Virus record (IMG/VR): IMGVR_UViG_3300017749_000006
Length of the DNA: 64,000 bases
Strand: one strand, 5' to 3'
Origin: an uncultured virus (IMG/VR IMGVR_UViG_3300017749_000006)
Lineage: Duplodnaviria > Heunggongvirae > Uroviricota > Caudoviricetes
Shown: positions 14,635 to 47,200 of the stretch, in pieces
How positions within the stretch are numbered: the stretch's first letter is position 1
How the letters are laid out: each line of letters starts with the position of its first letter
The notes under the pieces: generated by a model
What the model was told of the DNA's origin: nothing
Databases searched by the model: none
The model's input: only the letters and a program-made list of their open reading frames with translations
Program-made: the position numbers and the translations under genes

Positions 14635-15042
14635 ATGAGCGCGAATAACCGCCGCATTCGACGTATCATTGTAGAGATACTTTTTGAGTGTGGACAGATG
14701 ACAAAAGAAGGAATGGCAGATATGTTAGCACAACGTAAAACTGTTCGTACTGTTCCTAGCCCACATAGTTTAGCGGCCCTTATGTCTAAGAATCCACAGA
14801 TAGTAGCGACGGGTTCAGAAGCAGTAGAAAATGCCGTAGGAACTAAGGCTATGCACTTAATTTATGACATAGATAGAGAGTTAATTAAAAATAAAGATGA
14901 TATTACCTACACACGTTCTTTGACAGTTATGACTCCTAGTGAGAAAGCAAAATCTCAAAAATGTTCCTGTAGTAGAACTAGAGTCTTCCCTCCTAATAGT
15001 GATGTCTGTCTACATTGTATAAGAGAACAATCAACATCTTAA
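14635..15042 (+). CDS. Winged-HTH plus C-terminal Zn-finger protein
   Basis: PSPHSLAALMSKNPQIV and CSC...CLHC. Confidence 0.65.
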   Translation: MSANNRRIRRIIVEILFECGQMTKEGMADMLAQRKTVRTVPSPHSLAALMSKNPQIVATGSEAVENAVGTKAMHLIYDIDRELIKNKDDITYTRSLTVMTPSEKAKSQKCSCSRTRVFPPNSDVCLHCIREQSTS

Positions 15043-15083
15043 TAAGCGAATAAGTACGAAAGTAATTTAAGACGCTAAGAGTA

Positions 15084-15443
15084 TTGGTTACTATGGATAC
15101 AGACAGACTTATGTTCCATTTACTACAACAGATGCAAGCATACGGAACAGACCCACTATTAGCAGATATACTGACGGACGAGAATATTAGACAAAGCCAC
15201 CTTGTTAAAGATTGTATTGATTTTTTAACTGACATAGATATTATAGATGATTTTGTAACTAATCCCGAATTAATGATGTCAAGAGCATGGAGTTTAGATT
15301 TAGTTAGAGGTATGGGCTTAGGTGTTTTGATGGCATTAGAAACAGATAATTCTAATCCCGTTGATTTTAAAGCAGAACTAGCAGAAATGTACAAACAATT
15401 AGAATCTTTGAGAATCGAGAAGACCTTTGATTCGCTTGCGTAG
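15084..15443 (+). CDS. Hypothetical protein
   Basis: ORF track. Confidence 0.65.
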   Translation: MVTMDTDRLMFHLLQQMQAYGTDPLLADILTDENIRQSHLVKDCIDFLTDIDIIDDFVTNPELMMSRAWSLDLVRGMGLGVLMALETDNSNPVDFKAELAEMYKQLESLRIEKTFDSLA

Positions 15444-15456
15444 TCATTACATTATC

Positions 15457-15474
15457 TTTATATTCTTAGAAGTA
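15457..15474 (+). promoter_or_regulatory. TATA promoter of the TTTATA-N5-AGAAGTA class
   Basis: TTTATATTCTTAGAAGTA matches 16588, 19536 and 23906. Confidence 0.55.
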
Positions 15475-15486
15475 AGCCTTTAATTT

Positions 15487-15693
15487 GTGAGCGAGGCGAG
15501 GATAGATAAACAGGTGCTATCCCCAAACCGTAACCGATATGCACAGATAGATGTAGAGCCGTTGATGAAGGAAGGAGTAAAGACACGAAGATTAAGAGTC
15601 TCACGTTCTGATAAACAAGCCAAGAGTCATAGATGCAGAACCGTTCTGATAATACATAGAGCATTAACAAGTCGGATAAGCCAAACGTTCACA
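15487..15693 (+). ncRNA. Candidate structured RNA (or long leader) upstream of RFC
   Basis: Closing stem GTGAGCG/CGTTCAC plus several internal stems; starts 30 nt after the TATA box. Confidence 0.45.
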
Positions 15694-15709
15694 CCTATGA
15701 GGAATTAAA

Positions 15710-16582
15710 ATGAGTAAAGTATGGGCATTAAAACATAGACCATCTATAGATGATATAGTTGGTCAAGATGATATTATAAATGCTATAGGTAATGGGATGC
15801 AACATATGGTATTCTATAGTCCACAAGCAGGTACAGGTAAAACAAGTTTGGCTCATGCTCTAGCAAAGAGACATGGTAGTACCTTACATATCTTTAACGC
15901 TAGTAGTAAAAAGACTAGAGGTATAGAGTTTGTAGAAGAAGAACTTATGCCTATGTCAAGAACAGGTAATTGGAAGCAAATATTTTTATTAGACGAGGCA
16001 GACCAATTAACACCTGCCGCACAATCAGCACTAAAAGGTGTGATAGAAAACGCACACGGTTGGTTTATTCTAACTTGTAATGATTTGTCTAAAGTAAGTA
16101 TATGGTTACAATCAAGATGTAGAGTTCTTAAGTTCAACCCTATTAGTGAAGAACATATGAAACAAAGATTAATTACTATAGCGGGTAAAGAAGGCGTAGA
16201 GATAACACCTAATCATTTAGCCTTAATAATTAATAACCATAGAGGAGATTTACGAAATGCAATCAACGCATTACAGGCATATCATAATTCTCAAGACAAA
16301 CATTCCTTTGTACATTCATTAGAGAACGAGAAGTTTGATGTCCAACAATTCTTAACACTTTGTTTTAGAGAAAAAGATTTTGAAGAGTCATTAAAACTAC
16401 TAGACAAAGATAACAAAAGGGAGAGTATTAGAGCAGTATTCCGTTTTGCTATGGAGTCAAATGCTAAACCCCCAAGTAAATTAAAGGTTATAGAAGCCGC
16501 CGTCACATCCGAAAGGGATTTTATTATGGGTGTTGACGAAGATATTATACTCTCTAATTTTGTTTTAATGTGTATAAGGTAA
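15710..16582 (+). CDS. rfcS: Replication factor C small subunit (clamp loader)
   Basis: WALKHRP, GQ, GTGKTS, NAS..RGI, LDEAD, AQ.AL, SRC motif, GDLRNAINALQ. Confidence 0.92.
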   Translation: MSKVWALKHRPSIDDIVGQDDIINAIGNGMQHMVFYSPQAGTGKTSLAHALAKRHGSTLHIFNASSKKTRGIEFVEEELMPMSRTGNWKQIFLLDEADQLTPAAQSALKGVIENAHGWFILTCNDLSKVSIWLQSRCRVLKFNPISEEHMKQRLITIAGKEGVEITPNHLALIINNHRGDLRNAINALQAYHNSQDKHSFVHSLENEKFDVQQFLTLCFREKDFEESLKLLDKDNKRESIRAVFRFAMESNAKPPSKLKVIEAAVTSERDFIMGVDEDIILSNFVLMCIR

Positions 16583-16587
16583 TAATC

Positions 16588-16605
16588 TTTATAAGCAAAG
16601 AAGTA
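16588..16605 (+). promoter_or_regulatory. TATA promoter TTTATAAGCAAAGAAGTA
   Basis: Identical 18-mer at 19536. Confidence 0.65.
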
Positions 16606-25407: not shown

Positions 25408-26423
25408 TAACCATGCTACTTAATTTTCCAAGAGAGATAGGGCTTCGCCGTCGTCAATGTGATAGTAGACAAGTCTTTGACGATTATGTTAATCGTATTA
25501 ATGGTAAGGCTTCTATCTATACTTCTTTGTATTCTTTTGAGAGAAAACACCCTACTAGAGCATGGAAGTATGATACAGATTCAGTAGTAATGGATAGAGC
25601 GTGGTGGGATTTTGACACGACAGAAGAAGAAGATATTTTTACCGTTAAAGATGATGTAAATACATTACTACAGAGAATAGAAGGTGATATAAGGGTAGTG
25701 GCTACAGGTAGAGGATTTCACGTACACCAAATATTTGACAAATCCGTTAAAGGTACTGCTATATCAAAACATGTAGATAGATACCAAAGAAAAATGGGTA
25801 AAGGATTAAAAACTCTTGATGGTGTAGGTAATCCTTTAAAACTTACAAGAGTTCCCGACACATATAATGTGACTAGAAAAAAGTGGGCAGTTAATATAGA
25901 CGTTAAAGAATTTATGAATGACCACCAAGAATATATAATCCCTAAAAAACCGGATATAAAACTTATCAAGAATGACCCGTTTAGAGGAGAGATAAGAGAT
26001 TCTTCTTTTAATATTGTCAAATGGATAGCAGAAAATCCTGCTAAACAGATGCCTATTTTACAAGCCTTTGATGGTGAGATAGGCACTATGGCACAAGTAC
26101 CAATTCCCCCTTGTTTAGACAAGGCTATGAGGCAAGAAAACCCTAGACATGATGTGAGGGTAGCCTTGACCCAACACTTAGCAGAAAGCCTACGTTGGTT
26201 CTCTAACCCTTCTACTATGACTTACCAAGAAAAAGCAAAAATAGGTGATGAGATAGCAGACTTTTATTCTACACTAGGTTGGAGAGATTATAATAAACAA
26301 ACTACAAGATTTCATATAAACAGTATATTAGATTATGAGAATACTGCTTCTTGTCATTGGTTACAGGCTAGAAATTTATGTACAGGCCCATGTTGGAATG
26401 ATGATGGCACAAGAAGAGATTAA
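25404..26423 (+). CDS. Archaeo-eukaryotic primase, PriS catalytic domain fused to PriL C-terminal Fe-S domain
   Basis: WDFD, TGRGFH, D...R.P.T.N; PPCL...H..R, SC..LQ...LC...C. Confidence 0.85.
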   Translation: MITMLLNFPREIGLRRRQCDSRQVFDDYVNRINGKASIYTSLYSFERKHPTRAWKYDTDSVVMDRAWWDFDTTEEEDIFTVKDDVNTLLQRIEGDIRVVATGRGFHVHQIFDKSVKGTAISKHVDRYQRKMGKGLKTLDGVGNPLKLTRVPDTYNVTRKKWAVNIDVKEFMNDHQEYIIPKKPDIKLIKNDPFRGEIRDSSFNIVKWIAENPAKQMPILQAFDGEIGTMAQVPIPPCLDKAMRQENPRHDVRVALTQHLAESLRWFSNPSTMTYQEKAKIGDEIADFYSTLGWRDYNKQTTRFHINSILDYENTASCHWLQARNLCTGPCWNDDGTRRD

Positions 26424-26457: not shown

Positions 26458-27183
26458 GTGTTAATCATTGATGACCGCGAGAATGAAAAAGTTAAGCAAA
26501 AACTCTTAATGAGAATGGGAGACTTCTCTAAATCTCCCGATGGTAGGGCTAAGATTAAGCGATTGAAGTCAGCAGACTATGTGATAGGCCAATGGGGTGT
26601 AGAGGCTAAGGAGATTAACGATTTGTATAGAAGTATTTTAGGTATAGGTAGAACTAGAACTATCTTAGACCAACTGAGAGACTTAGAAGAAAACTTTGAT
26701 AAGCCATTCCTTGTGGTTTACAACACCAAATTAAAACCCTACGTACATGGCAGACCTACGGCACAGAAAATGGCAATCGAGATGACAAAAATGCAAAAAG
26801 TTATTAATCAATTTAAACTTACATTCTATCAAAGGTTTCCTAATATAATGTACATGGAATTACCTAGTATGGATTCGTTTTGTGATTGGTTAGTAGTTAA
26901 TCATACACAGATGACTTTAGATGGTGGCGCACAAATTAATCGCTTACCGGATTTTGTAAGAAAAGCACACTCTGAGCCTGTATTTGATGATAGAGTAGCG
27001 GTACTAACTACTTTAGCGGGTATAACACCTGTTATGGCAGTAGATTTATTACAAAAATTTGGTAGCATTCCACAGATATTACACAGTAGAAGAACACAAA
27101 AAGCACTTATGGAAGTAGAAGGTATAGGTAGAAAAAAGGCTCAGAAAATTCTATCGTTACGAGATAAATTTAATCAAGAATAA
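26458..27183 (+). CDS. ERCC4/XPF-family nuclease with tandem HhH motifs
   Basis: IIDDRE, ADY, VEAK...DL..S, QL..L, GIG.KKA. Confidence 0.88.
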   Translation: MLIIDDRENEKVKQKLLMRMGDFSKSPDGRAKIKRLKSADYVIGQWGVEAKEINDLYRSILGIGRTRTILDQLRDLEENFDKPFLVVYNTKLKPYVHGRPTAQKMAIEMTKMQKVINQFKLTFYQRFPNIMYMELPSMDSFCDWLVVNHTQMTLDGGAQINRLPDFVRKAHSEPVFDDRVAVLTTLAGITPVMAVDLLQKFGSIPQILHSRRTQKALMEVEGIGRKKAQKILSLRDKFNQE

Positions 27184-30100
27184 GGTACAAATTCAGTAGA
27201 AGGGGAATCTGCTACTACTGCGGCTCTCCTAAAATTAACGTTAAGATTAGAAACTTGTACGCTTTGGTATTTAGCATTATCTTTTGCTTTACCACCTCTT
27301 CTACTTACTATAACCTCTATATTATTACCGGGAGTAACTACACCTGCTAAGGATTGGGTAGATATTAACTCTACATTAATTTGTTTGCCTGTAGAGACTA
27401 CTACACTATCTTGTATTCTTGTGTTTGTTTCTTTACATCTAACATCTATATCCAATACTGCTTTTTTACCTACTCCTGTACCTTCTTGTAACTGTAAACT
27501 AGCAGTTACATTTATATCATCATTAATAGCATCAGAAGGTGTAGGTACATTAAATTTAACTGCGTGCGTAGTGTCATATTTTTTCTGTTCACTACCCGAT
27601 TCTGCTAAATCTGTTACTGATTGCGTCTTCCCACTTCCGGGCAAAGCAAAAGAATCACCGTCTGTAATTGCTGAACCGGAATAAAGATGTGGTGTCAATC
27701 CACCTTGTTGTCCTCTCATAGAAGATAGTGTACTAGGTACTCTCATTTGCCCTAAAATTTGATGTCCTGTTTGTGGGGTAAACATACTACCACCCATATT
27801 CATACTACCTACTTGGTTTTGATAAAAACCTTGACTAACAGAATTAGGGGATATAAGATTAGAGTTAGGTGGAAAATCTATAAATGGATTCATACCATTA
27901 ATGTTTTGATTATCGTTTTCTGTAATATCTTCGACAATAGTTTCTGCCGGCGGCAAAGGAATGTCTACAACAGTTACACTTTCTTGGTGTGAGTTAACAG
28001 GTAAGTTATCTAGTATGTATGGTACTATACCCGAAGCAGAACGAGACTCATCTCTTTCTAATGTTAAATTAATTTTTTCTACGTTACCTGCTTTTACTGA
28101 CCAATCAATATCTTGTATAACTAAAGTTTCGTTATTTAGACTATGTGAAGCATCTGTATAAGAAACATAAGTAGCAGGAATATAAGTAAGGTCATCTACA
28201 ATATGTAATTGTGGGGCATACCATTCATTTCTATATAGTCCTATACCACCTTTAAATTCTGTATATTGTCTAGCCCCTAATGGGAAAATACTATTTGTAT
28301 TAAAAGTAGAGCCTAAATCTATCCCTGCTATATCATGGGCGTTTTTGTGTGTGTTAGTAGAACCACACCTACTTCTTACAAGGTCACGACAATATTCAGA
28401 GTTAAAAGAAAATACTATTGTTCCTGTACCATATGAAGACGGTACATCTAATTCGTAAAACCCACTATGTTTTACTTCTTGAGAAACACTACCATTAGTG
28501 GCTAAAGTAGCATTTAATCTAGCCGCCGCATTAGAGGGGGTAGTAGCAGTAGAGTTATCAAAAGAATAATCAGCCAACCAAACTTTAAAGTTTAAAGTAT
28601 TTACATCAGTATTAGTACCATCGGGTTTAAGAGATACTATAACCCTTAATTTTTCTCCTGTAGTAGCACTAACTTTAGGAGTATCCTTACTAATATGTAC
28701 AATTTGTACTGCTTTAGAAACTGACCTAGAACCATACCATGTATAGTTATCAGAAGTGCCTAATGTCGCACTATAAGAAGGCATACTACCTGTTCCTATT
28801 CTATTATATAATGTGGTAGTAGGGGCGCTACCTAGATTACCGTCAAGAGCATTAACCATACCGGGAAATAATAAGCCCCCTGTTCCTAAAATAGTCCAAC
28901 ACCAACCTGTTCCTAAACTGTCATCGTTATTTCCTTGAAACGCTATTTGTGGGTCTGAAATATATCCATATCTACCACCATCTAACATAGCATCTTTGTC
29001 ATTTACTGCTCTAATAGGGCTAATTTCTAAAAGAATATTATTTTGTTTCTTTTTTCTATAAATTTCTTTGGCTAATTGTTCTGCTTCTTTTTGTGTTCTA
29101 ACACTAGAGTTAGATTCTATAAACCAAGAAGTAGTATCAGACAAATTAGGTTTAGGGAAATCTACAAAGTCTTTGTTGTCATTATAATAAACTCTAACAT
29201 TTTCTACATTTGTGTTAGATTGTATTTCCATATTAGATAATTTTATACCTTCCCTAGTAATACTATGACCGCTATTGTATTTTGGTCTTAATTCTAATTT
29301 GTTGTCTCTACCTATTAAATATGAAAAAGAAGTTTCTAAATTATTAGTAGTTCCTACTCCCGATAGTTTCTGTATGTTTTGTATAGTGCTATATACGGTC
29401 TTATTTTGTGTATTTAATACACCGCCATAAGAATCACTTTCTGATTTAGTATCATAAGTAGTCATAAGGTTTGTAATAGGCACATTATTAATGTCAAAAA
29501 CGCATGGGTATTTAGTGTTAGACCACCAAGTATCAGCCATACCTGCTGACCATAAAGTTCTAAGTTTATCACTATTATAGAAAGTACCGTTGTTAGGAGA
29601 TTCTATAGCACCATCTATTTTCATCATTAATCTGTAAGCAAATTGTGATGCTACATTGTTATATACTTCTACTTCAATATAATCGCTATTAGATATTTGT
29701 ACTTTTGAAAAAGGAGTATCTATATTGTCAACTAAGTTAGAGTTACTTATGTGACTTCTAAACGCATTCTCTATTTCTGATGCTGACCACGTACTATCGG
29801 TAGTAATATTAGTAGCACTTTCAATAACTACTCCGGCTAATTGGGCAGGTATTGTATAAGAAGATGTAGCACTCCAACCATCAGTAATATCTTGGGCAGT
29901 AATATATTTTCTTCTTAGTCCTACAGTAGTATTTGTGAATGATTCTCCGGCTATAGCAAGCAAAGTATCTCTTGTGTTAGGGATATTGGCAAAGGGGTTA
30001 TATGGTAAATAACTAACTTTTTCTACCCACAATACTGTTTCGCTATCAACTTTTCTTATTCTGTAATAAAAGTCTTGAATAAAATGTGTAGCGTAACTTG

Positions 30101-33100
30101 TTAAAGTACCTCTTACTAACGGTTTTGTATTATTTTTAATATACATTCCTGCTTTGATACCGTCAGAAATAAAAGTAGCATCACTATCTGTTAAAACCCA
30201 ATACGAATCTCCAATAGTAGGGGTAACATAAGAGGTAAAAGCGCTTGTTTCTGCGGTATTAAGTTTATTATTCCAACTAAACATATAATTAGAATTAGAA
30301 TCATTTTTAAAACCTTTAATTCTACCTATACCGTTATCTAAAAATATAGTAACATCAGTAGGCTCTACCCAAAAGTGACCTTTAGAAATATTGCTTGCTA
30401 ATGTAGTATTGTCACCTACTATTTGAGAAGTATAGTCGTGTTTTTTATAATTAACGTCTGTGCTTAATGTAGTAGATGGAGCGTATTTATAATAATTATC
30501 TATAAGTGCTACATCACCTCTACTAATAGCATAATAATCTTCTAAATTAGTTCTACCACCTACCTCTTGATTTATACTACCATTATTTGCTAAAGTATTA
30601 AGATTAAAAAATTTAGAAGTATCTATTAATATCATAGAGCCGCCTTTTTCATGCCAATCTCTATACACACTCAAATCTGTAGAACTGCCGTAAGTTATTG
30701 CGTATTTTATACCACCATTACCACCTGTATCATTACCTAAATAAATATTATCTATAATAAAATAACCGCTATTTGAAGCGTCTGTTATTTGAAATATACC
30801 GTTGTGTCCACTTTGACTTGCATTCCATATACCTACATAATCTCCGTTAGATAAACCATGACTTGCTTTTGTTACTCTTACCTTTAAAGTACCATTACTT
30901 GTATTACCACCACCTTCGTTAAGAAGAGTACAAGTTTGTTGATTAGTATAATCAAGAGGACGGGAAAAAGGGCCATCTGTACTATCATCTAAAGTAGAAT
31001 CTACTTCCCATATATCATAATCTTCGCTTTGTTTTAATTCTGTAAATACTCTAGGATTTCCTTCTTCGTCAAGGTCATCTTCAAACAGTAATTTTAATGA
31101 ATAATTGTCCATTTTAGGAGAAACAAGACCGAAAGATTTTTTTCTTAATCCACCATCAGCATCAGCAGTACCATCATTTCTCATGTCAGCCCACAATACC
31201 CACATATGTTTATAATCGGTTCTTAAATCTAACACGCTAACCTTTGTTGCTTCTGATATTTGAGTTAAAGAGGTTTGCCAATTTTTTCCTGTTCCCGCAT
31301 GATTTAGGCTAATATACTTAACACCCGCTAAATAATATTTACTGTTGCCTGTGTCATGCCATTTATGACGATAGATAGCAAAATCATTAATCATTTTTTG
31401 TGTAGTATGTGTTGCTGATTTTACAGGTCTTTGTATTTGTATTACTCCGTGTGTAGGTGCGGCATTAAAAGATGCTTGAGTTACTTCTATTTGATTAGCG
31501 TTTGCGGCAGTAGTGCTAGGAACTACCGATGTAGTAATAGCAGAATATTTTATTTCACCAAAATGATATTGAAACCACAAAGATAAAGGTAAATCTCTCA
31601 TCCATACTGCGTGTGAAACTCTATTAGAAACATCTTCACTTGTTGGTGCGGGAGTAATAACCCCACCTGTTACTGTTGTTAAGTTTTTCCTGTCGTTACC
31701 GCTTAATAAACCATCATTATTAATCCAAGTACCATACTCTATACCAAAAACACTACCTTCATAGGGAGTATAAGTTTGTATTTGCCACAAATAAGTTGCG
31801 GTGTTAGCACCTATACCATAATTATAATTAGACGTACTATGATAATTAAAAATCTTTTTTATACTTTTAATTTCATGCCTTTCTCCTAAAAATACAAAAT
31901 GTTCTCCTGCCCTAAGATTAGGGTCTACATCTAAACAAAGAGTGAAAGTATCTGATATTGCTTCTCCACCCATAATTTCTTCAAATTGTGCGTCATCTGT
32001 TATAGCGGTAATTTTAGAAGTAACATTACCATTTCCTAAACCACTTGCTAGTGGTATTTGAGCAGTTATTCTACTGTTTATAAGATAGTTTTTGCCAAAG
32101 TTTTTAAGGTTATATGTATGTGCAGATATAGTTTGTGCTATTTCTATAGATGTTACTTCATTACCCGATACAGTAATGTCTAACTTACAACCCGAACCTG
32201 TTACATTATTAGTTCTTACTACAGTAGCCCCTGCACTATAGTTAGTATTTAAATCTGCTACAGTTAATACATTACCACTTTTACCACTGTAACTTATAGC
32301 ATCACCGTTTACAGTAATAGTACCACTATTATTAAATCCTGTAGCATCAGTTAGTGTCAGTTGTGTTTGTCCGTCAGTATAATTAGAGGCTAAAGTAGTT
32401 AAAGCGCCCGAAACAGTAGTAGCAATACTTTCATAAGTTCCGTTTGCTAAAGTGGTATTCCAAGCAGACTCTACAAAAGTTTTTACTCCGTTATTATTTG
32501 CAGTAACTACACCACCTAAGAGAGAACCTACTGTTGGTACAGAAGTATAACCATACCCCGAATCTAAAACTTCTGCCGCTATAATTTTTCCTGTATTTGG
32601 GTCAGCAACCCATTTAGCAGTAGCAGTTTCAGAAATATCTTCTCCGGTGTCTCCTATATAACTAGGCGGAGTAGATATACTTAGTGGCCCTTCATAAATA
32701 GTTGTATCAGTTCCATTATTATTTACTACAGAATAATAACCTGTAGCAAAATAATGATTTTCACCACCTTCTATTACATTAATATCTTCTAAATAATGTC
32801 TAGTAGGGTGTGTAGCCATTAAATGTATATAATTTAAAAACCTAGTATATTCCTCACTTGATGTACCTGCTAGGCTAGTTAAATAATCGCTTTGAGTCAT
32901 ATAATTAGAGTCTGTATATTCTATACTAGAGCCTATATATTTACCTGCATAAACTACACAATTACTAAGATTATGAACTAAATCATTATCAAGAATATTA
33001 CTTGCTATATCGGCAGTATTAGCGGCATCAAAAGTTACGTGTTCTTGTGTAACTCCGGCAGTAGTAACATCGTTAACTGCATTAATAACTAAAGATACGT

Positions 33101-35162
33101 CATCATAACCGCTAATACCTGTATGTTTTATAGTTACAGTTTGCCCTACACCAAAACCGGGATTTCCTGTCATGACAAAAGTTATTTTACCATTACTTTC
33201 TTCAAATATATAATCTACACCCATACCTTCATAATCATTCTCTAAACTATTTGGCCCAAAAGTATCTTCGTTATTGTATATTTGTATAGGGTGACCGGAA
33301 TGTAGTTGAGTTCTTTGGTCGCTTCTATTTTCATAAGAATCCATATGTGTTCTACCTAATGTACCTGCTAAAGTTTTTAAATTATTAGCGCCCATATTCA
33401 TAACCTCTTTCATACCTTCTGCTTCGTAGTGCCAATACAAACTACCTGTTTCGCTTGTATTTAAACCACCTTGACCTACTTCCCATAGCGGTAATTGTTT
33501 GTTTAGAATATTAAGTGAGTCTTGTGCTTCTATTTGTATTTCTCTATCTTGTAAATTTTCTTTAACGGTTAAATTAGTTATTACCCCTTTCCATATTGGT
33601 CTATCTATACGGGCAATATCTTTAGACCCTGTTTCACCTGCTCCTGCAAACACTAACATATACCATTCTTTTAAAGATTCACCACTAAACAAATTATAAA
33701 TTTGTTGGTCATATTGTGTAGTTTCAAATCCGTATTGATTATCTGAATGGTATTGTGCTTCATCTAAAAATTTTAAATTTGCGGAAGAAATACCATTATT
33801 AGTAGTATTAATATCTAATGTGGTCATAGGATTTAATTCTTTGCCGGATGGGTCGTCTGTTAATGGCCTATATACGGCGGCTCTATCTAACATTAAAGTA
33901 GTTACAGTTTTATCAGTATTAAGTGGTGGGTGAGTGTATATTTCCCAACCATACATGGCACTAGCATTTCTTGTAGCCCCAAAATTATTAGTGCTTTTCA
34001 ATACCCCATCTTGATACACTTTAAATTTTTGTGCGCCATCTGTGTAATCTATGTGTACGTCTACGTCTATCCACATACTATCCGTTGTATTGTTAATAGC
34101 AGTTTTATTACCGTCATATAACATAGGGTGTGTGTTGTAATTTGATAAATCTAAATCAAAAGAAATAGCGGGTGTTCCTGTAAGACCGTCTTCTAAAAAT
34201 GTGTTCATACCATATAAATTACCCTCAGTTAAAGTAGTAGCGGTAACGCTACCGCTAAACCCGGCTTTTATTGTTACTTTTGGTACTACTGCACCATGAC
34301 TATTTGTTGTACCATTAAACGAACGTACTGCTAATCTAAAATGTAACCAATCACCTGTATCTCTTGAGTTTAAACTACCATCGTAAATTAAAGTAGGTGT
34401 TGACGGTGTAGAATTACTACCTGTTTTATCCCAAGTTTGTACACATAAAAACGGTTGACCGGAAGGGGATTCTACAGTAGCAAAAACATTCTCAGCCGCC
34501 GTATCGCTACTTCCAAAATTTATGGTTTCTCCCATCCAATGACCTGCCAAATGCGCTTTAGCAGTTCTAGTAATGTTAGCGTGTGTACTGATAGTATTTT
34601 TTCCCGAAGTTTTGTTAGCAAAAGTAGTAGCGTCACCATATCCTACCATATCGCTTCTAGCAAAACTACTGTCTATAGTACCCGTAGGAACTATATATCT
34701 AGTAGAGGTATCGTGACCATTACAAAATAATTGGTAAGCATCATTACCATAAAGTCCTGTTGTAGAATTTGGTGTAGTTCTAAATTTATTAACATTTGTA
34801 AATCCATCGGGATATTCTAATTGTGACCTACCTTGATAAGTGTCATTTAAATTTCTAATAGGGTCGTAAGAAATCCATTCAAACAAACCTTTGTTGTGTA
34901 ATAATTTATTAGTAGCACTAGCAAAAAACTCGCCGGAAGTTAGAGTAGAATTATCCCTAACTCTATCTAAAATACACCAACGGTATCTAGGATTTAATGT
35001 AGCCTCACCATTTAAAGGATTACCAAAATGTGATTTGTACATTAAATATTCTGTTTTATTATTTGGAGAATTAGTATCTTCTGCTATGGCTCTAGCCCCT
35101 GTAAAATCATCATAATAGCCCGTAAGCCATATACCATATTTATCTTTGACACTACGAACCAT
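27174..35162 (-). CDS. Giant tail tip / baseplate hub protein, 2662 aa
   Basis: Follows the tape measure gene; beta-rich with inserted domains. Confidence 0.7.
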   Translation of the reverse strand: MVRSVKDKYGIWLTGYYDDFTGARAIAEDTNSPNNKTEYLMYKSHFGNPLNGEATLNPRYRWCILDRVRDNSTLTSGEFFASATNKLLHNKGLFEWISYDPIRNLNDTYQGRSQLEYPDGFTNVNKFRTTPNSTTGLYGNDAYQLFCNGHDTSTRYIVPTGTIDSSFARSDMVGYGDATTFANKTSGKNTISTHANITRTAKAHLAGHWMGETINFGSSDTAAENVFATVESPSGQPFLCVQTWDKTGSNSTPSTPTLIYDGSLNSRDTGDWLHFRLAVRSFNGTTNSHGAVVPKVTIKAGFSGSVTATTLTEGNLYGMNTFLEDGLTGTPAISFDLDLSNYNTHPMLYDGNKTAINNTTDSMWIDVDVHIDYTDGAQKFKVYQDGVLKSTNNFGATRNASAMYGWEIYTHPPLNTDKTVTTLMLDRAAVYRPLTDDPSGKELNPMTTLDINTTNNGISSANLKFLDEAQYHSDNQYGFETTQYDQQIYNLFSGESLKEWYMLVFAGAGETGSKDIARIDRPIWKGVITNLTVKENLQDREIQIEAQDSLNILNKQLPLWEVGQGGLNTSETGSLYWHYEAEGMKEVMNMGANNLKTLAGTLGRTHMDSYENRSDQRTQLHSGHPIQIYNNEDTFGPNSLENDYEGMGVDYIFEESNGKITFVMTGNPGFGVGQTVTIKHTGISGYDDVSLVINAVNDVTTAGVTQEHVTFDAANTADIASNILDNDLVHNLSNCVVYAGKYIGSSIEYTDSNYMTQSDYLTSLAGTSSEEYTRFLNYIHLMATHPTRHYLEDINVIEGGENHYFATGYYSVVNNNGTDTTIYEGPLSISTPPSYIGDTGEDISETATAKWVADPNTGKIIAAEVLDSGYGYTSVPTVGSLLGGVVTANNNGVKTFVESAWNTTLANGTYESIATTVSGALTTLASNYTDGQTQLTLTDATGFNNSGTITVNGDAISYSGKSGNVLTVADLNTNYSAGATVVRTNNVTGSGCKLDITVSGNEVTSIEIAQTISAHTYNLKNFGKNYLINSRITAQIPLASGLGNGNVTSKITAITDDAQFEEIMGGEAISDTFTLCLDVDPNLRAGEHFVFLGERHEIKSIKKIFNYHSTSNYNYGIGANTATYLWQIQTYTPYEGSVFGIEYGTWINNDGLLSGNDRKNLTTVTGGVITPAPTSEDVSNRVSHAVWMRDLPLSLWFQYHFGEIKYSAITTSVVPSTTAANANQIEVTQASFNAAPTHGVIQIQRPVKSATHTTQKMINDFAIYRHKWHDTGNSKYYLAGVKYISLNHAGTGKNWQTSLTQISEATKVSVLDLRTDYKHMWVLWADMRNDGTADADGGLRKKSFGLVSPKMDNYSLKLLFEDDLDEEGNPRVFTELKQSEDYDIWEVDSTLDDSTDGPFSRPLDYTNQQTCTLLNEGGGNTSNGTLKVRVTKASHGLSNGDYVGIWNASQSGHNGIFQITDASNSGYFIIDNIYLGNDTGGNGGIKYAITYGSSTDLSVYRDWHEKGGSMILIDTSKFFNLNTLANNGSINQEVGGRTNLEDYYAISRGDVALIDNYYKYAPSTTLSTDVNYKKHDYTSQIVGDNTTLASNISKGHFWVEPTDVTIFLDNGIGRIKGFKNDSNSNYMFSWNNKLNTAETSAFTSYVTPTIGDSYWVLTDSDATFISDGIKAGMYIKNNTKPLVRGTLTSYATHFIQDFYYRIRKVDSETVLWVEKVSYLPYNPFANIPNTRDTLLAIAGESFTNTTVGLRRKYITAQDITDGWSATSSYTIPAQLAGVVIESATNITTDSTWSASEIENAFRSHISNSNLVDNIDTPFSKVQISNSDYIEVEVYNNVASQFAYRLMMKIDGAIESPNNGTFYNSDKLRTLWSAGMADTWWSNTKYPCVFDINNVPITNLMTTYDTKSESDSYGGVLNTQNKTVYSTIQNIQKLSGVGTTNNLETSFSYLIGRDNKLELRPKYNSGHSITREGIKLSNMEIQSNTNVENVRVYYNDNKDFVDFPKPNLSDTTSWFIESNSSVRTQKEAEQLAKEIYRKKKQNNILLEISPIRAVNDKDAMLDGGRYGYISDPQIAFQGNNDDSLGTGWCWTILGTGGLLFPGMVNALDGNLGSAPTTTLYNRIGTGSMPSYSATLGTSDNYTWYGSRSVSKAVQIVHISKDTPKVSATTGEKLRVIVSLKPDGTNTDVNTLNFKVWLADYSFDNSTATTPSNAAARLNATLATNGSVSQEVKHSGFYELDVPSSYGTGTIVFSFNSEYCRDLVRSRCGSTNTHKNAHDIAGIDLGSTFNTNSIFPLGARQYTEFKGGIGLYRNEWYAPQLHIVDDLTYIPATYVSYTDASHSLNNETLVIQDIDWSVKAGNVEKINLTLERDESRSASGIVPYILDNLPVNSHQESVTVVDIPLPPAETIVEDITENDNQNINGMNPFIDFPPNSNLISPNSVSQGFYQNQVGSMNMGGSMFTPQTGHQILGQMRVPSTLSSMRGQQGGLTPHLYSGSAITDGDSFALPGSGKTQSVTDLAESGSEQKKYDTTHAVKFNVPTPSDAINDDINVTASLQLQEGTGVGKKAVLDIDVRCKETNTRIQDSVVVSTGKQINVELISTQSLAGVVTPGNNIEVIVSRRGGKAKDNAKYQSVQVSNLNVNFRRAAVVADSPSTEFVPYS

Positions 35163-44004: not shown

Positions 44005-44232
44005 TTATGCTAACCAAGAAGGCTTTGTTGGAAAGTTAGAGTAGCAATCTGTTGGGTTGTCATACGCCGCAGGTAAATCTAACAAAGCAGTTCTATATGT
44101 TGCTAGTTCTGCCTTTTGCGAATCTGTTAATCCTGCATATATTAAAGTTAATTGGTATTTATCAACCAATCTTAATGCGCTATTTCTATCTTCCCTCAAA
44201 TAATCCCATTCTGCTTCAGTAACCATAATCAA
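44005..44232 (-). CDS. Tail fibre assembly chaperone
   Basis: W..LR..RN..L...D, YR.ALLDLP, FP.KPSW motif. Confidence 0.8.
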   Translation of the reverse strand: MIMVTEAEWDYLREDRNSALRLVDKYQLTLIYAGLTDSQKAELATYRTALLDLPAAYDNPTDCYSNFPTKPSWLA

Positions 44233-47200
44233 TCAAACTCCACGTATATAACACCTACAGTATCACCCATATCAACACTGTTGGCAGTTATTCTTTGTAT
44301 TCTAATTTCATCTAAGGCATCAAAGGTGTGGTTTACAACCATTGAACCTCTATATATTGTAGTTGAATGAGGCGCTACTGCTAAGTCCATAGCGGCACTT
44401 CCACTTACACCTGTATCATCTTTAGTTAAACCTTTACCTGCGGTAAACTCAAAAAATTCTCCCGAAGTAGTATTATCATTGTTATTATTTATTTTCCAAG
44501 TTTGTACGTTTGAACTTGTAACCGCTTGGTTTCTAGTGTTTAATGTAATATATTTTATTCTTCCCGATTTAGGCATAATGAATCCCCATTGGTTTTGAGT
44601 TGAAGGATAATCATTTGATACTGCTTTTAGATTTACTGCACCCGTACCCATATCACTTCTATTAAATACATACGGTACACAAGTGTTAAGATTATGCGGT
44701 GCAGATTGTATAGACCCGCTCGTTCCATCAATGTGCATTACATCAAGTCCGGCAGATGTGAAGGTCATCGAGTTATCTTGGATAAGGATTTGCTCATCGC
44801 TAGACCTAGCCCTTTTTAAATATAAATCTTCATTATGAGAACCTATAACTCCATTATCTACTACTATTTCTTTGTTAAAGTAATACAGACCTCTATCTGT
44901 AATAAAATGCATATAAGTAGAGTTTAGAGGGCCAACTCTTATATAACCATGCTCGGTATCAATTCTTAAAGCATCTGCTTCTTCGGAAAGTCTTACGTGG
45001 TCAGTAGCAGGTGAAGCGCCTGTACCGTTTGCTAATTGTATGCTACCCCCGTCAGCAAAATCTAATTGCCCGTCATTTAACAAAGTCATTTTTGTTGCTC
45101 CACCTGCTTGGAAAAATATGTCATCATCGGCATGGAGAACTAAATCATCATCAGCCGCTAATGTAACATCAGTACCACTTGAAGATGCTAGAATGAAAGA
45201 ATTATCTGTATCGGGGCTTAAGTAAATGTATGAGTTAGTACCTGCTTTACCGTTTCTTATTTCTTCTGCTTTTAAACCACCTGTAGTATAAATACCACCT
45301 TGACTATTTGCGTTAAATACGCTAAGGTCAAGTTCTTCTACTACCGCAAAGTTAGTCCAAGAATCTGTACTATATCCTATTATAAGGTCATAAGCATTGG
45401 CGCTTTCGGTATCTGCTAACCATGTATCAAGCAAAAGCCAAGAATTAGTATGTTCTGTCATAGTCATATAAGACTCTAAATCATTACTAGCATTAGAAAC
45501 ATAGACCTGTAGCACCGCACCGGAAAAAGTGCTACTACTTTTTATTCTTAATTTAGTAAAAGTAGGTGTACTATAAAAATTGTAAGCCAAAGCCTGTATT
45601 GATTCTCCTGCACCGAAGAAATGTGTAGCATTAAATCTAACAGTACCATGTCTACTACTTCTATTATCGTTAATTAAAAACTCTGCAAATGCTCTTTGAG
45701 CGCCCACATTACCTAAAGCATCCCTACCTGCTACATATGCTACTGTGTACCAACCAACTGCTAAATCAGTAGATTGTTGTTTACCCGTACCGTAATCTAA
45801 AGTACCGTCTTGTAGTTTTAATCCCGTACATTCTATTGTACCTACAACATCTAATTTAGATGAAGGAGAATTAGTACCTATTCCAAGATTACCCGATGAG
45901 TCGAACCTTGCTTTTTCTACTGCATTAAGTCTAAACGATATTCCATCGTAAGCAGATATAGCGAGTCCATCGGGATTAGCACCACTATGGTCTTGTACTG
46001 TAATTGAAGGTTGATTAGTGTTCAAATGTCCTTCACGGAAGTACAGACCTGCACCTGCACCTGCTTCGTATGCGTCAATCAACACACTACCCTCGACATG
46101 GAGTTTAGCATCGGGGTCTGTCGTGCCTATTCCGACTCTCATTGTGCTACCATCTAACATCAGTAAGTCATCACTAGCGGCATTCATTCTGAATCGTATG
46201 TCGCCATTGTCTGTTGCTTGGTCTATGTAAGATGCACCTGCTCTATTGAATGTTAAGGCATTATTGCCAAGTTTGGTGTAGAAAGAATCTGTGTTTAGTC
46301 CTATTTGTAGTGTGCCATTATCCACATGAAGTTTATTCTGAGGACTCGTAGTGCCTATTCCGATATTACCCGCCGGTTCAATATGAAGTCTAACTGATGC
46401 ACTTGTAGCCGGATTAGTTGTTCCGGTATTGTTAGTAGTTCCTGTTAGGAACTGTATTCCGCCACTCGTACTGATATTGTTGATAATCTGCAATTTATTA
46501 CTTGTTGCTTGGACAGCGTGTCCGGTAATATCTCCATCTTGCTTCATCCACAAGAACGGTAAGTCTGCCTCATCACTGTTATCGGTATCAGCCTCGATGA
46601 TAATTCCGGCACTACCCGATGTTCCACTTGAAACATGAAGAAGGGCATCGGGAGAAGTAGTGCCTATTCCCATTTTACCATCGTAAGAGCCTTGTGAACC
46701 ACCAAAGAAGAAATCACCATTACCAATGTTTACGTCTGCTTCTCCGTTATACGATAAGTGCAAGACAGAAGTACCCGATTCATCATAATGGAACGCTAAA
46801 TCATTCCCTACAACAATTCTTAAATCATCGTCTTGCATTAAGATGTAAGTATTGGTATCTCCGTTGTGATAGATGTAGTCATCTACACCAATACTACCTG
46901 CTACGTCTAATGTGTAGTCAGGACTTGTAGTACCTATTCCAAATTTACCTGCTGATTCATCAAAGTAAAATCCTGTTGTAGTATTAGTTCCGTATAGATG
47001 GAAGTCTCTACTTTCAGTATCTAAATTATTTATACCACCAAACGCACCAAGAGTCATGAATGAATCTTCACTAGAATCTTGGTCGCCAAAGAAAAGGAAT
47101 GAACCATTTGATTTGCCCGACATTGTTACTGAATAATTATCAGTAGTATCTTGAACTCTTATTCTTTGGTCATCAGTTCCGGCAACGTGTAAATTAACTG

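What the first reader, a model, noticed from the sequence alone, without database searches (positions are those of the whole stretch)
15487..15693. Candidate ~205-nt multi-stem viral ncRNA with its own promoter
Seen: a TTTATA..AGAAGTA promoter at 15457 predicts a start at 15487 (same 30-nt spacing as at 19566 and 23936), exactly where GTGAGCG (15487-93) can pair with CGTTCAC (15686-92). Nested stems: GGC/GCC, GGATAG/CTATCC (15500-22), CCGAT/GTCGG (15534/15671), GTTCTG/CAGAAC (15605/15636), GTTCT/AGAGC (15643/15658). Internal repeats: GATAAACA twice, CGTTCTGATAA twice, ATAGATGYAGARCCGTT twice. TGATGA and CTGA motifs could form L7Ae-binding kink-turns (inference). An overlapping 73-codon GTG ORF has atypical codon use. 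It may be a novel RNA, a protein sponge, or a regulatory leader for RFC.
Basis: partly seen in the sequence, partly recalled or inferred. Interest (0 to 1): 0.75.

Follow-up and report, generated by a model that had tools for sequence, protein, structure and literature searches.

The report
New structured RNA family in magroviruses
The gap in front of the clamp-loader gene of this marine archaeal virus holds a non-coding RNA that folds into a conserved knotted shape, belongs to a family found in many related viruses and matches no described RNA family, and whose job is still unknown.

Summary
The finding holds up, with corrections. Window 15487-15692 (+) is one member of a structured RNA family. 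I collected 38 distinct members from viral and metagenome contigs.

- **Fold.** The shared fold has a closing helix P1, hairpin P2, helices P3-P5 and a variable domain of 5 to about 190 nt inside P5. A pseudoknot probably joins the P2 loop to the P3/P4 junction.
- **Covariation.** 14 of 28 pairs keep pairing through changes on both sides; 0 of 500 shuffles reach this.
- **Not coding.** The 73-codon frame is open in only 5 of 26 variants.
- **No known family.** Rfam gives no credible match.
- **Promoter.** The window's promoter is real and puts the start at the first base of P1. It is really the RFC promoter: two relatives lack the RNA and have RFC directly behind the same promoter.
- **Other settings.** Elsewhere the RNA sits between, behind or in front of other replication and repair genes, mostly without its own promoter.
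- **Copy number.** There is one full-length copy in each of five genomes (one also has a short second copy), and none in two near-complete relatives.
- **Rejected.** A C/D-box or K-turn identity and an RFC-specific leader role are not supported.

Function is open. I favour a self-contained RNA acting independently of its neighbouring gene. A new self-cleaving ribozyme is the boldest reading not excluded.

The parts
15457..15474 (+). Viral promoter motif: TTTATAT box at 15457-63 and AAGTA at 15470-74. The predicted transcript start is about 15487.
   Evidence: Sequence. There are four exact copies of TTTATAnnnnnnnAAGTA in the window, two of them with an ATG at +30. The same promoter stands directly before the RFC ATG in relatives that lack the RNA. 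The start site is inferred, not measured.
15487..15493 (+). Outer P1, 5' strand (GTGAGCG). It pairs with 15686-15692.
   Evidence: Sequence. The outer flanks differ in sequence between copies but pair better than mismatched flanks: median -6.5 against -3.3 kcal/mol over 35 flank pairs, Mann-Whitney p = 2e-6.
15495..15497 (+). Inner P1, 5' strand (GGC). It pairs with GCC 15680-15682. GA at 15498-99 is the junction to P2.
   Evidence: Invariant in 38 of 38 members. In other members the three pairs next outward covary.
15500..15522 (+). Hairpin P2: GGATAG, loop ATAAACAGGTG, CTATCC.
   Evidence: 100% paired in 38 members. Three of six pairs keep pairing through changes on both sides, e.g. GC:20 / CG:17 at the closing pair. 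G-U pairs (10 cells) fit the + strand only.
15511..15515 (+). Part of the P2 loop (CAGGT), proposed to form a pseudoknot with ACCGA 15533-15537.
   Evidence: Three invariant Watson-Crick pairs (GGU with ACC). The next position changes together with its partner in two separate lineages: C to T with GA to AG or AA. Type 2 members have UUGGG/UCCAA there. Support is modest.
15528..15530 (+). P3, 5' strand (CCG). It pairs with CGG 15673-15675.
   Evidence: CCG/CGG becomes CCA/TGG in six type 1 members, and independently within type 2.
15539..15542 (+). P4, 5' strand (ATGC). It pairs with GCAT 15661-15664.
   Evidence: Invariant in type 1. It becomes TTCG/CGAA in the divergent member L166.
15544..15648 (+). 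P5 (CAGA 15544-47 with TCTG 15645-48), enclosing the variable domain 15548-15644.
Evidence: P5 covaries: ACGA/TCGT in L043, AAGA/TCTT in L138.
15649..15685 (+). Conserved 3' half: junction ATAATACATAGA, P4 3' strand, TAACAAGT, P3 3' strand, ATAA, inner P1 3' strand GCC, and AAA.
   Evidence: Nearly invariant in type 1 members. GT directly before the P3 3' strand is kept in all three types.
15686..15692 (+). Outer P1, 3' strand (CGTTCAC).
   Evidence: Sequence; flank-pairing test.
15699..15712 (+). Shine-Dalgarno-like GAGG (15699-15702) and the RFC start codon (15710-12).
   Evidence: Sequence. The stretch from the RNA's 3' flank through the SD-like GAGG to ATGAGT stands in front of a different gene in L136.
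15710..16582 (+). Gene for an RFC small-subunit-like clamp loader. It is the downstream neighbour, not part of the RNA.
   Evidence: Pfam AAA_lid_RFC1, AAA and DNA_pol3_delta2.
15487..15708 (+). 73-codon GTG ORF overlapping the RNA. It is not a gene.
   Evidence: This frame is free of stops across the core in 5 of 26 variants. The variable domain changes length by amounts that are not multiples of three.

Best explanation
**What it is (about 0.9).** Window 15487-15692 encodes a member of a previously undescribed structured RNA family of magroviruses, the viruses of marine group II archaea.
- The RNA folds into a three-way junction of P1, P2 and P3.
- P3 continues through an internal loop into P4 and P5.
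- The P2 loop probably docks on that internal loop as a pseudoknot.
- A long, locus-specific extension of P1 clamps the two ends.
- P5 carries a freely exchangeable variable domain.

**How it is made here (inferred).** It is transcribed from the TTTATAT promoter as the 5' end of the RFC transcript. In other viruses it is transcribed as a middle or 3' part of mRNAs for replication and repair genes.

**Most likely mechanism (about 0.4).** It is a self-contained RNA module whose action does not depend on which gene lies next to it. I favour a stable RNA whose invariant junction and loop nucleotides bind a host factor or a universally conserved viral factor, so that it works as a ribonucleoprotein or decoy during the early, replication phase of infection.

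The fold and the non-coding nature are shown. Transcription is weakly shown. Stability, processing and any partner are inferred.
For: **A family exists**
- The core is 98.9% identical over 188 nt in a different flank (L017), and a shortened version sits in an unrelated locus, L024.
- There are 38 distinct members.

**The fold is supported**
- On a MAFFT alignment of 26 members, 91.9% of cells pair and 8 pairs change on both sides; 3 of 500 shuffles reach that pair count and 0 of 500 reach the other four measures.
- On the 38-member alignment, which is fitted to the model, the figures are 92.1% and 14 of 28 pairs, with 0 of 500 shuffles. Sliding the partners drops pairing to 19-38%.
- G-U pairs fit only the + strand.
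- Short members fold into P1, P2, P4 and P5 on their own, with z between -2.6 and -3.2 in 4 of 7.

**It is not coding**.

**It is independent of its neighbour**
- There are at least five genomic settings: in front of RFC; between DUF932-like and Pyr_excise-like genes; between a Zn-ribbon gene and a PD-(D/E)XK nuclease gene; beside a C5 methylase gene; and among unknown ORFs.
- Some copies are followed by a run of T and a new TATA box (L047, L108), by a separate promoter-like box, or by a converging gene (L128, L138).

**It behaves as a gene, not a repeat**
- One full-length copy is found in the window and in each of four virus records (three at least 98% complete, one 84%); one record also holds a short second copy.
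- About 60 invariant positions include many unpaired ones.

**It is probably transcribed**
- Metatranscriptome contigs from two studies cover the element.
Against: - There is no direct evidence for a discrete or stable RNA. The contigs could come from contaminating DNA. Their ends coincide with points where variants diverge, so they say nothing about RNA ends.
- Most copies have no promoter or terminator of their own. That suits an element acting within the mRNA at least as well.
- No viral protein family is specific to the RNA-bearing genomes, comparing 5 with and 2 without at blastp E below 1e-5. No partner is in sight.
- The RNA is absent from two near-complete magrovirus genomes, G006 (100% complete) and G010 (97%), so it is dispensable.
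- The pseudoknot rests on three invariant pairs and few independent changes.
- Host genomes could not be searched with the model.
Confidence: 0.42

Rival explanations
1. A new class of self-cleaving ribozyme, or other self-processing element, embedded in viral mRNAs. It would cut the transcript, perhaps at the invariant GU just before the P3 3' strand, and so separate or trim cistrons.
For: - The connectivity matches the pistol ribozyme: the loop of a hairpin pairs with the junction on the left shoulders of two stacked helices, and a conserved GU lies on the right-shoulder junction (pistol architecture read as passages of PMC4604425).
- It is embedded in mRNAs at 5', middle and 3' positions, without its own promoter or terminator.
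- Unpaired junction nucleotides are conserved, and a peripheral domain is optional and variable.
- It is always co-directional with the upstream gene.
Against: - No Rfam ribozyme model matches, Pistol included.
- The right-shoulder junction is 7-8 nt here, whereas in pistol its length of 2 nt is strictly kept.
- Far more nucleotides are invariant than small ribozymes usually need.
- Cleavage cannot be tested with these tools, and the laid contigs show no joint or common end.
Confidence: 0.15
2. A cis-acting leader or intercistronic element that controls translation, stability or read-through of the gene directly downstream. It could work as a riboswitch or as a protein-bound operator.
For: - 31 of 80 RFC loci carry the RNA directly upstream of RFC on the same strand, usually ending 12-25 nt before a Shine-Dalgarno-like sequence and the ATG.
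- In the window, L136, L166/L168 and L173 it lies exactly between a promoter and the first gene.
- The downstream genes found are all DNA-metabolism genes.
- The second CC(GA) can pair either with the P2 loop or with GUCGG, so a structural switch is conceivable.
Against: - The downstream genes differ: RFC, a glycosylase, a Zn-ribbon protein, a methylase and a PC4-like protein.
- In the DUF932 setting, and in L047 and L108, a promoter-like box or a run of T plus a TATA box separates the RNA from the next gene.
- In L128 and L138 the next gene converges on it.
- The Shine-Dalgarno-like sequence is not sequestered by any conserved helix (sequence).
- Close relatives express RFC without the RNA.
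Confidence: 0.12
3. A recognition and protection structure for host RNA-processing enzymes. The long P1 clamp would mark a cut site or block exonucleases, defining the ends of mRNAs, comparable to the intercistronic RNase III sites of phage T7 (recalled, not checked in a paper).
For: - The flanks form an extended helix of locus-specific sequence in about half of the copies: 15 of 35 at -8 kcal/mol or below, against 7% of mismatched pairs.
- Its position is at gene boundaries, often 10 nt or less after a stop codon.
Against: - A processing hairpin would not need about 60 invariant nucleotides, a three-way junction and a pseudoknot.
- There is only one full-length copy per genome although there are many gene boundaries.
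- There is no regular bulge-helix-bulge geometry: the internal loops measure 1x3, 2x2, 0x2, 4x2 or are absent.
Confidence: 0.1
4. A selfish mobile DNA cassette (like a miniature transposable element), or a recombination hotspot, with no function as RNA.
For: - A nearly identical element, variable domain included, lies in unrelated flanks: window against L017, 98.9% over 188 nt while their RFC proteins are about 60% identical.
- A larger cassette with the same ends lies in front of two different genes, window against L136.
- Presence and absence alternate among close relatives.
Against: - There is one full-length copy per genome.
- Compensatory changes, including strand-specific G-U pairs, show selection on an RNA fold.
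- No target-site duplication or constant terminal inverted repeat was seen.
- The same locus holds different variable domains (L017 against L109), which fits exchange between homologous RNA genes rather than transposition.
Confidence: 0.05
5. A C/D-box-like or other L7Ae-binding K-turn small RNA.
For: The window has TGATGA at 15565-70 and CTGA at 15607 and 15646. A weak hit to a C/D snoRNA model was found: 17.6 bits against a gathering score of 45, E = 2.5.
Against: - TGATGA occurs in 2 of 38 members and RTGATGA in 0 of 38.
- It lies in the variable domain.
- The conserved CTGA is half inside helix P5.
- The size and architecture do not fit.
Confidence: 0.02
6. A small protein gene: the 73-codon GTG ORF at 15487-15708.
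For: The frame is open in the window.
Against: - The frame is open in only 5 of 26 variants, and no frame is open in all.
- Indels are not multiples of three.
- The pattern of change is pairwise compensatory, not synonymous.
Confidence: 0.01

Closest known systems
Pistol self-cleaving ribozyme, and the pseudoknot-containing hammerhead said to share its connectivity
   Same: Both have a hairpin whose loop pairs with the junction joining the left shoulders of two further helices, and a conserved GU on the right-shoulder junction. Both are embedded in transcripts of phages or viruses. Sources: passages of PMC4604425 and the abstract of PMC11300833, compared.
   Different: - No match to the Rfam Pistol model.
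- An extra closing helix P1 makes a three-way junction.
- The right-shoulder junction is 7-8 nt, not a fixed 2 nt.
- The pseudoknot has 3-5 pairs.
- The conserved nucleotides are different and far more numerous.
- Cleavage is untested.
Orphan structured RNAs of phages and marine metagenomes, such as GOLLD, ROOL and the IMES RNAs (names recalled; these families are in Rfam)
   Same: Both are found by comparative analysis, supported by covariation, located in viral intergenic regions, and of unknown function.
   Different: No sequence or structure match to any of the 4227 Rfam models. This RNA is much smaller than GOLLD or ROOL, and its carriers are viruses of archaea.
Phage HK022 put RNA, a cis-acting antiterminator (recalled; no paper read)
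   Same: Both are compact structured RNAs placed just downstream of an early promoter, co-directional with the genes that follow. In the window, L136, L166/L168 and L173 the RNA starts at the predicted transcript start.
   Different: Many copies are not near a promoter and lie at the end of a transcription unit. There is no sequence likeness. Nothing is known of such a mechanism for archaeal RNA polymerase.
Translational operators of phage replication genes, such as the T4 gene 32 leader pseudoknot (recalled; no paper read)
   Same: Both are pseudoknotted RNAs in the leader of a replication gene within a viral replication module.
   Different: The downstream gene is not constant. The RNA is also found where it cannot be a leader. 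No partner protein co-occurs with it.
Y RNAs and phi29 packaging RNA, as examples of trans-acting viral or cellular RNP RNAs (recalled; no paper read)
   Same: All are about 100-200 nt with the ends clamped in a long terminal helix, have conserved internal loops as likely protein-binding sites, and are present as one gene per genome.
   Different: There is no sequence or Rfam match. No Ro-like or other candidate partner was identified.

Membership tests
Any Rfam 15 family (4227 models) | A covariance-model match near the family's gathering score | tested here: not met
   - Window 14800-16400 gives only four chance-level hits. The only one that overlaps the element scores 17.6 bits against a gathering score of 45.
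- There are 0 hits at E of 1 or less on 8 type 1 loci.
- There are 0 hits on 5 loci that include types 1b and 2.
C/D-box small RNA / L7Ae K-turn RNA | Conserved box C (RUGAUGA) and box D (CUGA) brought together by a terminal stem | tested here: not met
   TGATGA occurs in 2 of 38 members and RTGATGA in 0 of 38. It lies in the variable domain. The conserved CUGA overlaps helix P5.
C/D-box small RNA / L7Ae K-turn RNA | Binding of L7Ae | not testable with these tools
   This needs a gel-shift or pull-down experiment.
Pistol ribozyme | Three stems, plus a pseudoknot between the first hairpin loop and the left-shoulder junction | tested here: inconclusive
   The connectivity is the same. The pseudoknot here rests on three invariant pairs and few independent changes, and an extra P1 is present.
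Pistol ribozyme | A right-shoulder junction of strictly two nucleotides (GU) holding the cleavage site | tested here: not met
   The junction is 8 nt (TAACAAGT) in type 1 and 7 nt in type 2, though it ends in an invariant GT. The pistol rule was read in PMC4604425.
Pistol ribozyme | Self-cleavage with Mg2+ | not testable with these tools
   This needs in vitro transcription and a cleavage assay.
Riboswitch or other cis-regulatory leader | Consistently placed in the 5' untranslated region of the regulated gene, with an expression platform | tested here: not met
   - Copies lie behind genes.
- Others lie in front of a separate promoter-like box or a run of T.
- Others lie in front of converging genes.
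- No conserved helix covers the Shine-Dalgarno-like sequence.
Miniature transposable element | Many copies per genome, constant terminal inverted repeats and a target-site duplication | tested here: not met
   One full-length copy is present in each of five genomes, with a short second copy in one. The flanking complementary sequences differ from locus to locus, and no duplication was seen.
tRNA / tmRNA | Cloverleaf or tmRNA structure recognised by ARAGORN | tested here: not met
   0 genes in the whole window.
Archaeal bulge-helix-bulge substrate (intron or circular-RNA precursor) | Two 3-nt bulges on opposite strands separated by a 4-bp helix, formed by the flanks | tested here: not met
   By inspection of 35 flank pairs, the internal loops vary (1x3, 2x2, 0x2, 4x2 or none) and show no regular geometry. 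The motif definition is recalled, not read in a paper.
Protein-coding gene (73 aa) | A reading frame kept open in homologues | tested here: not met
   The frame is open in 5 of 26 variants.

The most novel reading that the evidence does not exclude
The RNA is a new class of self-cleaving ribozyme carried by viruses of archaea. It would have pistol-like connectivity but its own conserved core, would cut viral mRNAs at the invariant GU in front of the P3 3' strand, and would spread between co-infecting magroviruses as an exchangeable RNA cassette.
Probability: 0.12. Interest if true: 0.9.

Novelty: categorically new. Interest (0 to 1): 0.72.

Why it matters
**Why the setting matters.** Magroviruses are thought to infect marine group II archaea, which the papers I saw describe as among the most abundant microbes of the surface ocean (abstracts listed). 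Neither these viruses nor their hosts are in culture.

**What was known.** The two magrovirus papers I searched for ncRNA-related terms report viral tRNAs but no other RNA gene:
- PMC5434244 has no occurrence of 'non-coding', 'intergenic', 'promoter' or 'repeat'; its RNA mentions are two tRNAs and an RNA polymerase.
- PMC11706807 has no occurrence of any ncRNA-related term.
- A full-text search for 'Marine Group II' together with 'structured RNA' found 0 papers.

**What this adds.**
- A compact, strongly conserved, pseudoknotted RNA held as one gene in many of these viruses points to an RNA-based step in infection that no protein annotation would reveal.
- It gives a concrete, synthesisable object about 100 nt long for biochemistry: self-cleavage, ligand binding and protein pull-down.
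- It gives a covariance model that can track these viruses in metatranscriptomes.

**Caveat on novelty.** By 'categorically new' I mean that the family matches no described RNA family. Whether its function is of a new kind is unknown.

Tried and rejected
- **Single-sequence folding of the window element.** Not significant on either strand.
- **Rfam.** Nothing credible.
- **tRNA and tmRNA scan.** Nothing.
- **Named phage records.** blastn found no match.
- **The window's own genome.** Not held. Relatives cannot be drawn for a virus record. Host (Poseidoniales) genomes could therefore not be searched with the model.
- **Pattern scan of one genome per prokaryote species.** A 19-nt pattern gave 25 hits, all in unrelated bacteria and all 16.3 bits or less with the model, so they are chance hits. 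This does not exclude a diverged host homologue.
- **Metatranscriptome contigs.**
  - Contigs from two studies cover the element.
  - Their ends (15495, 15682 and others) coincide with the points where family variants diverge, so they show no RNA ends.
  - The contigs cannot exclude contaminating DNA.
  - Lack of cover over RFC proves nothing.
- **Empty-site search for the L017 locus.** A search with its downstream flank gave the same locus plus chance hits in unrelated genes.
- **Search for a partner protein by co-occurrence.** No cluster was present in at least 4 of 5 RNA-bearing genomes and absent from both genomes without the RNA. The power is very low.
- **Bulge-helix-bulge reading of the flanks.** Rejected by inspection.
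- **Second model for types 1b and 2.** Not built, because the MAFFT alignment of the divergent types was poor. I used a transparent regular expression instead.
Full report
**Setting.** The window is part of a magrovirus-like genome. Around the finding lie genes for an RFC small-subunit-like clamp loader (15710-16582), a chaperonin, a family B DNA polymerase, a PD-(D/E)XK nuclease and an ERCC4 nuclease, all on the + strand. The finding occupies the 266-nt gap between a 119-codon ORF (15084-15443) and the RFC gene.

**Checking the observation.**
- The promoter motif TTTATAnnnnnnnAAGTA has four exact copies in the window: 15457, 16588, 19536 and 23906. With one mismatch there are 23 matches against 8.6 expected, and 0 of 100 shuffles reach 23.
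- At 19536 and 23906 an ATG follows 30 nt after the TATA start. At 15457 the same distance gives 15487, the first base of GTGAGCG.
- The direct repeats are real.
- On its own, the sequence does not fold better than shuffled versions: z = -1.47 on the + strand and 0.06 on the - strand.
- Rfam and ARAGORN find nothing.

**The gap is an insertion relative to close relatives.**
- I fetched RFC loci from viral contigs and aligned the upstream regions. L004 (RFC 89% identical) has no element: the ATG stands directly behind the same TTTATAT promoter.
- L005 (RFC 64% identical) also lacks it. L005 is the same record as L170.
- L170 even has AATTTGTGAGCGA, identical to the window's 5' flank, joined directly to the ATG.
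- L174 relates to L173 in the same way.
- So the promoter belongs to RFC, whose mRNA has little or no leader in these relatives, and the RNA sits between promoter and start codon.

**A family.**
- Pattern scans with conserved stretches found the core in many contigs. The core is window 15495-15682.
- In L017 it is 98.9% identical over 188 nt but lies in other flanks, while the RFC there is about 60% identical.
- In L024 a shortened form lies in an unrelated locus.
- The pattern scans gave 29 distinct variants.
- A survey of 80 RFC loci added six more type 1 variants and two divergent types.
- I call the divergent types 1b (L166, L168) and 2 (L167/L169, L172/L173, and a second copy in L064).
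- The alignment fitted to the model holds 38 distinct sequences. The length from GGC to GCC runs from 70 to 260 nt.

**The fold.** In window coordinates:

| Element | Position |
|---|---|
| Outer P1 | 15487-93 with 15686-92 |
| Inner P1 (GGC/GCC) | 15495-97 with 15680-82 |
| P2 hairpin | 15500-05 with 15517-22, 11-nt loop |
| P3 (CCG/CGG) | 15528-30 with 15673-75 |
| P4 (ATGC/GCAT) | 15539-42 with 15661-64 |
| P5 (CAGA/TCTG) | 15544-47 with 15645-48 |
| Variable domain | 15548-15644 |

Support for it:
- RNAalifold on a MAFFT alignment of 26 members found P1 to P4 by itself.
- Counting pairs on that alignment gave 91.9% paired cells and 8 pairs changed on both sides; 3 of 500 shuffles reach that pair count and 0 of 500 reach the other four measures. 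Sliding the partners gave 20-37% pairing.
- On the 38-member alignment, 14 of 28 pairs change on both sides, with 0 of 500 shuffles. This alignment is fitted to the model, so it leans towards the structure.
- P2 is 100% paired, with GC:20 and CG:17 at its closing pair.
- P3 changes from G-C to A-U in six type 1 members, and independently within type 2.
- P4 becomes TTCG/CGAA in L166.
- P5 becomes ACGA/TCGT or AAGA/TCTT.
- G-U pairs (10 at one P2 position, 6 at one P1 position) would be C-A mismatches on the other strand, so the RNA is read from the + strand.
- Short members fold into P1, P2, P4 and P5 unaided, with z between -2.6 and -3.2 in 4 of 7; the other three gave -0.3, -1.2 and -1.5.
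The compensatory changes and the CCAGT and CCAAT variants speak for P3. Both pairings may exist as alternatives.

**A probable pseudoknot.**
- GGU of the P2 loop can pair with ACC of the junction between P3 and P4. These three pairs are invariant.
- The next loop position, C, changes to T exactly in those members where the junction changes from GA to AG or AA. This happens in two lineages with different P2 helices.
- Type 2 has UUGGG opposite UCCAA, and type 1b has CAAGGU opposite ACCAUG.
- The sites are only 25 nt apart and could travel together by recombination, so I rate this as likely, not shown.

**Not coding.**
- The 73-codon frame is free of stops across the core in 5 of 26 variants, and no frame on either strand is open in all.
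- The variable domain takes lengths of 12, 13, 15, 16, 23, 35, 38 nt and so on, so the conserved 3' half is read in different frames.

**The variable domain and the repeats.**
- The domain inside P5 ranges from a GCAA loop (L040) to about 190 nt (L123).
- It is a mosaic of modules shared between otherwise different members.
- The window's domain looks like the L047 type with an L100-type module inserted.
- L168 lacks P5 and the domain altogether.

**Where it lies.**
- The model finds one copy in the window at 128.6 bits; the next best hit scores 13.6 bits.
- It finds one copy in each of four virus records (three at least 98% complete, one 84%). One of them also has a short type 2 copy in tandem.
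- It finds none in G006 (100% complete) or G010 (97%), nor in three partial records.
- Among 80 RFC loci, 28 have a model hit directly upstream on the RFC strand, and three more have a type 2 copy found by a regular expression. L172 has one cut by the contig end.
- All carriers have an RFC at least 58% identical to the window's. None of the more distant loci has the RNA.
- Other settings are: between DUF932-like and Pyr_excise-like genes; between a Zn-ribbon gene and a PD-(D/E)XK nuclease gene behind the polymerase; beside a C5 cytosine methylase gene; in front of a weakly PC4-like gene; and among ORFs without any Pfam match.
- The upstream gene is always on the same strand. The downstream gene usually is, but converges in L128 and L138.
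- In most settings the RNA begins 10 nt or less after a stop codon and has no promoter of its own.
- Behind it come either a Shine-Dalgarno-like sequence and an ATG, or a run of T with a new TATA box (L047, L108), or a promoter-like TTAAAAGT box 28 nt before the next ATG.
- The flanks outside GGC/GCC differ from locus to locus yet pair with each other: median -6.5 against -3.3 kcal/mol for mismatched flanks, p = 2e-6, with 15 of 35 at -8 or below against 7%.

**Exchange between viruses.**
- The near-identity of the whole element between the window and L017, variable domain included, contrasts with their diverged proteins and unrelated flanks. This points to recent transfer.
- The same locus can hold different variable domains, as in L017 against L109.
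- I therefore favour exchange between homologous RNA genes of co-infecting viruses, using the conserved core as homology arms, over transposition.
- A larger cassette, running from about 10 nt before the start site through the RNA and its 3' flank with the Shine-Dalgarno-like sequence to ATGAGT, lies in front of RFC in the window and in front of the Zn-ribbon gene in L136.
- No empty site for L017 was found.

**Transcription.**
- 18 runs on record as RNA hold some of the sampled words of the stretch; only 5 of them hold at least a quarter (0.27-0.39), and most of the rest hold 0.05-0.07.
- Contigs from four runs of two studies cover the element: 15495-15714, 15476-15675, 15495-15682 and 15568-15711.
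- This is weak support for transcription, because DNA in the libraries cannot be excluded.
- The contig ends fall where variants diverge, so they carry no information on RNA ends.

**What it is not.**
- It is not a member of any Rfam family.
- It is not a tRNA or tmRNA.
- It is not a C/D-box RNA: TGATGA occurs in 2 of 38 members.
- It is not a multi-copy mobile element.
- It is not a regular bulge-helix-bulge substrate.
- It is not a gene-specific leader.
- The closest architecture I could name is the pistol ribozyme. It has the same connectivity of hairpin loop, left-shoulder junction and GU on the right shoulder (passages of PMC4604425).
- The right-shoulder junction here is 7-8 nt rather than a fixed 2 nt, there is an extra P1, and the conserved nucleotides differ. 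It is therefore not a pistol.

**Mechanism.**
- Shown: a conserved, strand-specific RNA fold; non-coding; one full-length copy per carrying genome; dispensable; independent of the neighbouring gene.
- Inferred: transcription as part of early and replication-module mRNAs, in the window from 15487.
- My preferred reading (about 0.4) is a self-contained RNA that acts through its invariant unpaired nucleotides on a host factor or a universal viral factor. No viral protein co-occurs with it, though that rests on only 5 genomes against 2.
- The main rivals are a new self-cleaving ribozyme (0.15), a cis-acting leader (0.12) and a processing or protection structure (0.1).

**Novelty.**
- Two magrovirus papers searched for ncRNA-related terms do not mention such an RNA. 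I searched them for terms only and did not read them in full.
- The full-text searches turned up nothing that describes such an RNA; one search found 0 papers.
- Supplements were not examined.
- Rfam 15 has no such family.

Noticed in passing
window 15457, 16588, 19536, 23906 (+): There are four exact copies of TTTATAnnnnnnnAAGTA. At 19536 and 23906 the ATG of the next gene lies exactly 30 nt after the TATA start, which suggests a virus-specific promoter driving leaderless mRNAs. The copy at 16588 lies inside the listed 16570 GTG ORF, so that gene's true start may be further downstream.
   Followed up: partly
L040 about 1577-1625; also behind the RNA in L094, L128, L132, L138 (sequences): A second conserved hairpin lies 5-25 nt behind the RNA in several loci. 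It has a stem like GGGTTCT/AGAACC, a loop GCGACAAAGTGC, and then CATATGG. In L128 and L138 the next gene converges on it, so it may be a terminator or another RNA motif.
   Followed up: no
L003 about 1400-1490, and L123 about 2590-2700 (inside the variable domain): A portable module of about 90 nt (GGAGWTAAAGGGTAAGYCYATTAAAGTAATCCCG ... CATATAGATAAAAACGCAAC) lies behind the RNA in L003 but inside the RNA's variable domain in L123 and L056.
   Followed up: no
L064 2489-2801 (-), which is G004 25497-25809: A short type 2 copy (core of 70 nt) and a full type 1 copy stand in tandem, each within a repeated unit of about 190 nt that includes the same flanks.
   Followed up: partly
L041 and L095, 5-70 nt behind the RNA: There is a long inverted repeat, GGGGGAGAGAAC ... 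GTTCTCTCCCC, directly behind the RNA.
   Followed up: no
Variable domains of many members, e.g. window 15574-15583: The purine-rich motif GGRRUAAAGR recurs just inside P5. A second motif, GGUCGGWGAGAGAU, is shared by the variable domains of types 1, 1b and 2. These may be protein-binding or tertiary-contact modules.
   Followed up: no
window 27174-35162 (-) and 44229-51896 (-): There are two very long ORFs, of 2662 and 2555 codons, on the minus strand. I did not examine them.
   Followed up: no
L062 2573-2842 (+), directly behind the RNA in the L047 setting: An 89-aa ORF has a weak match to the PC4 single-stranded-DNA-binding fold, E = 2.8e-4, below Pfam's cut-off.
   Followed up: no
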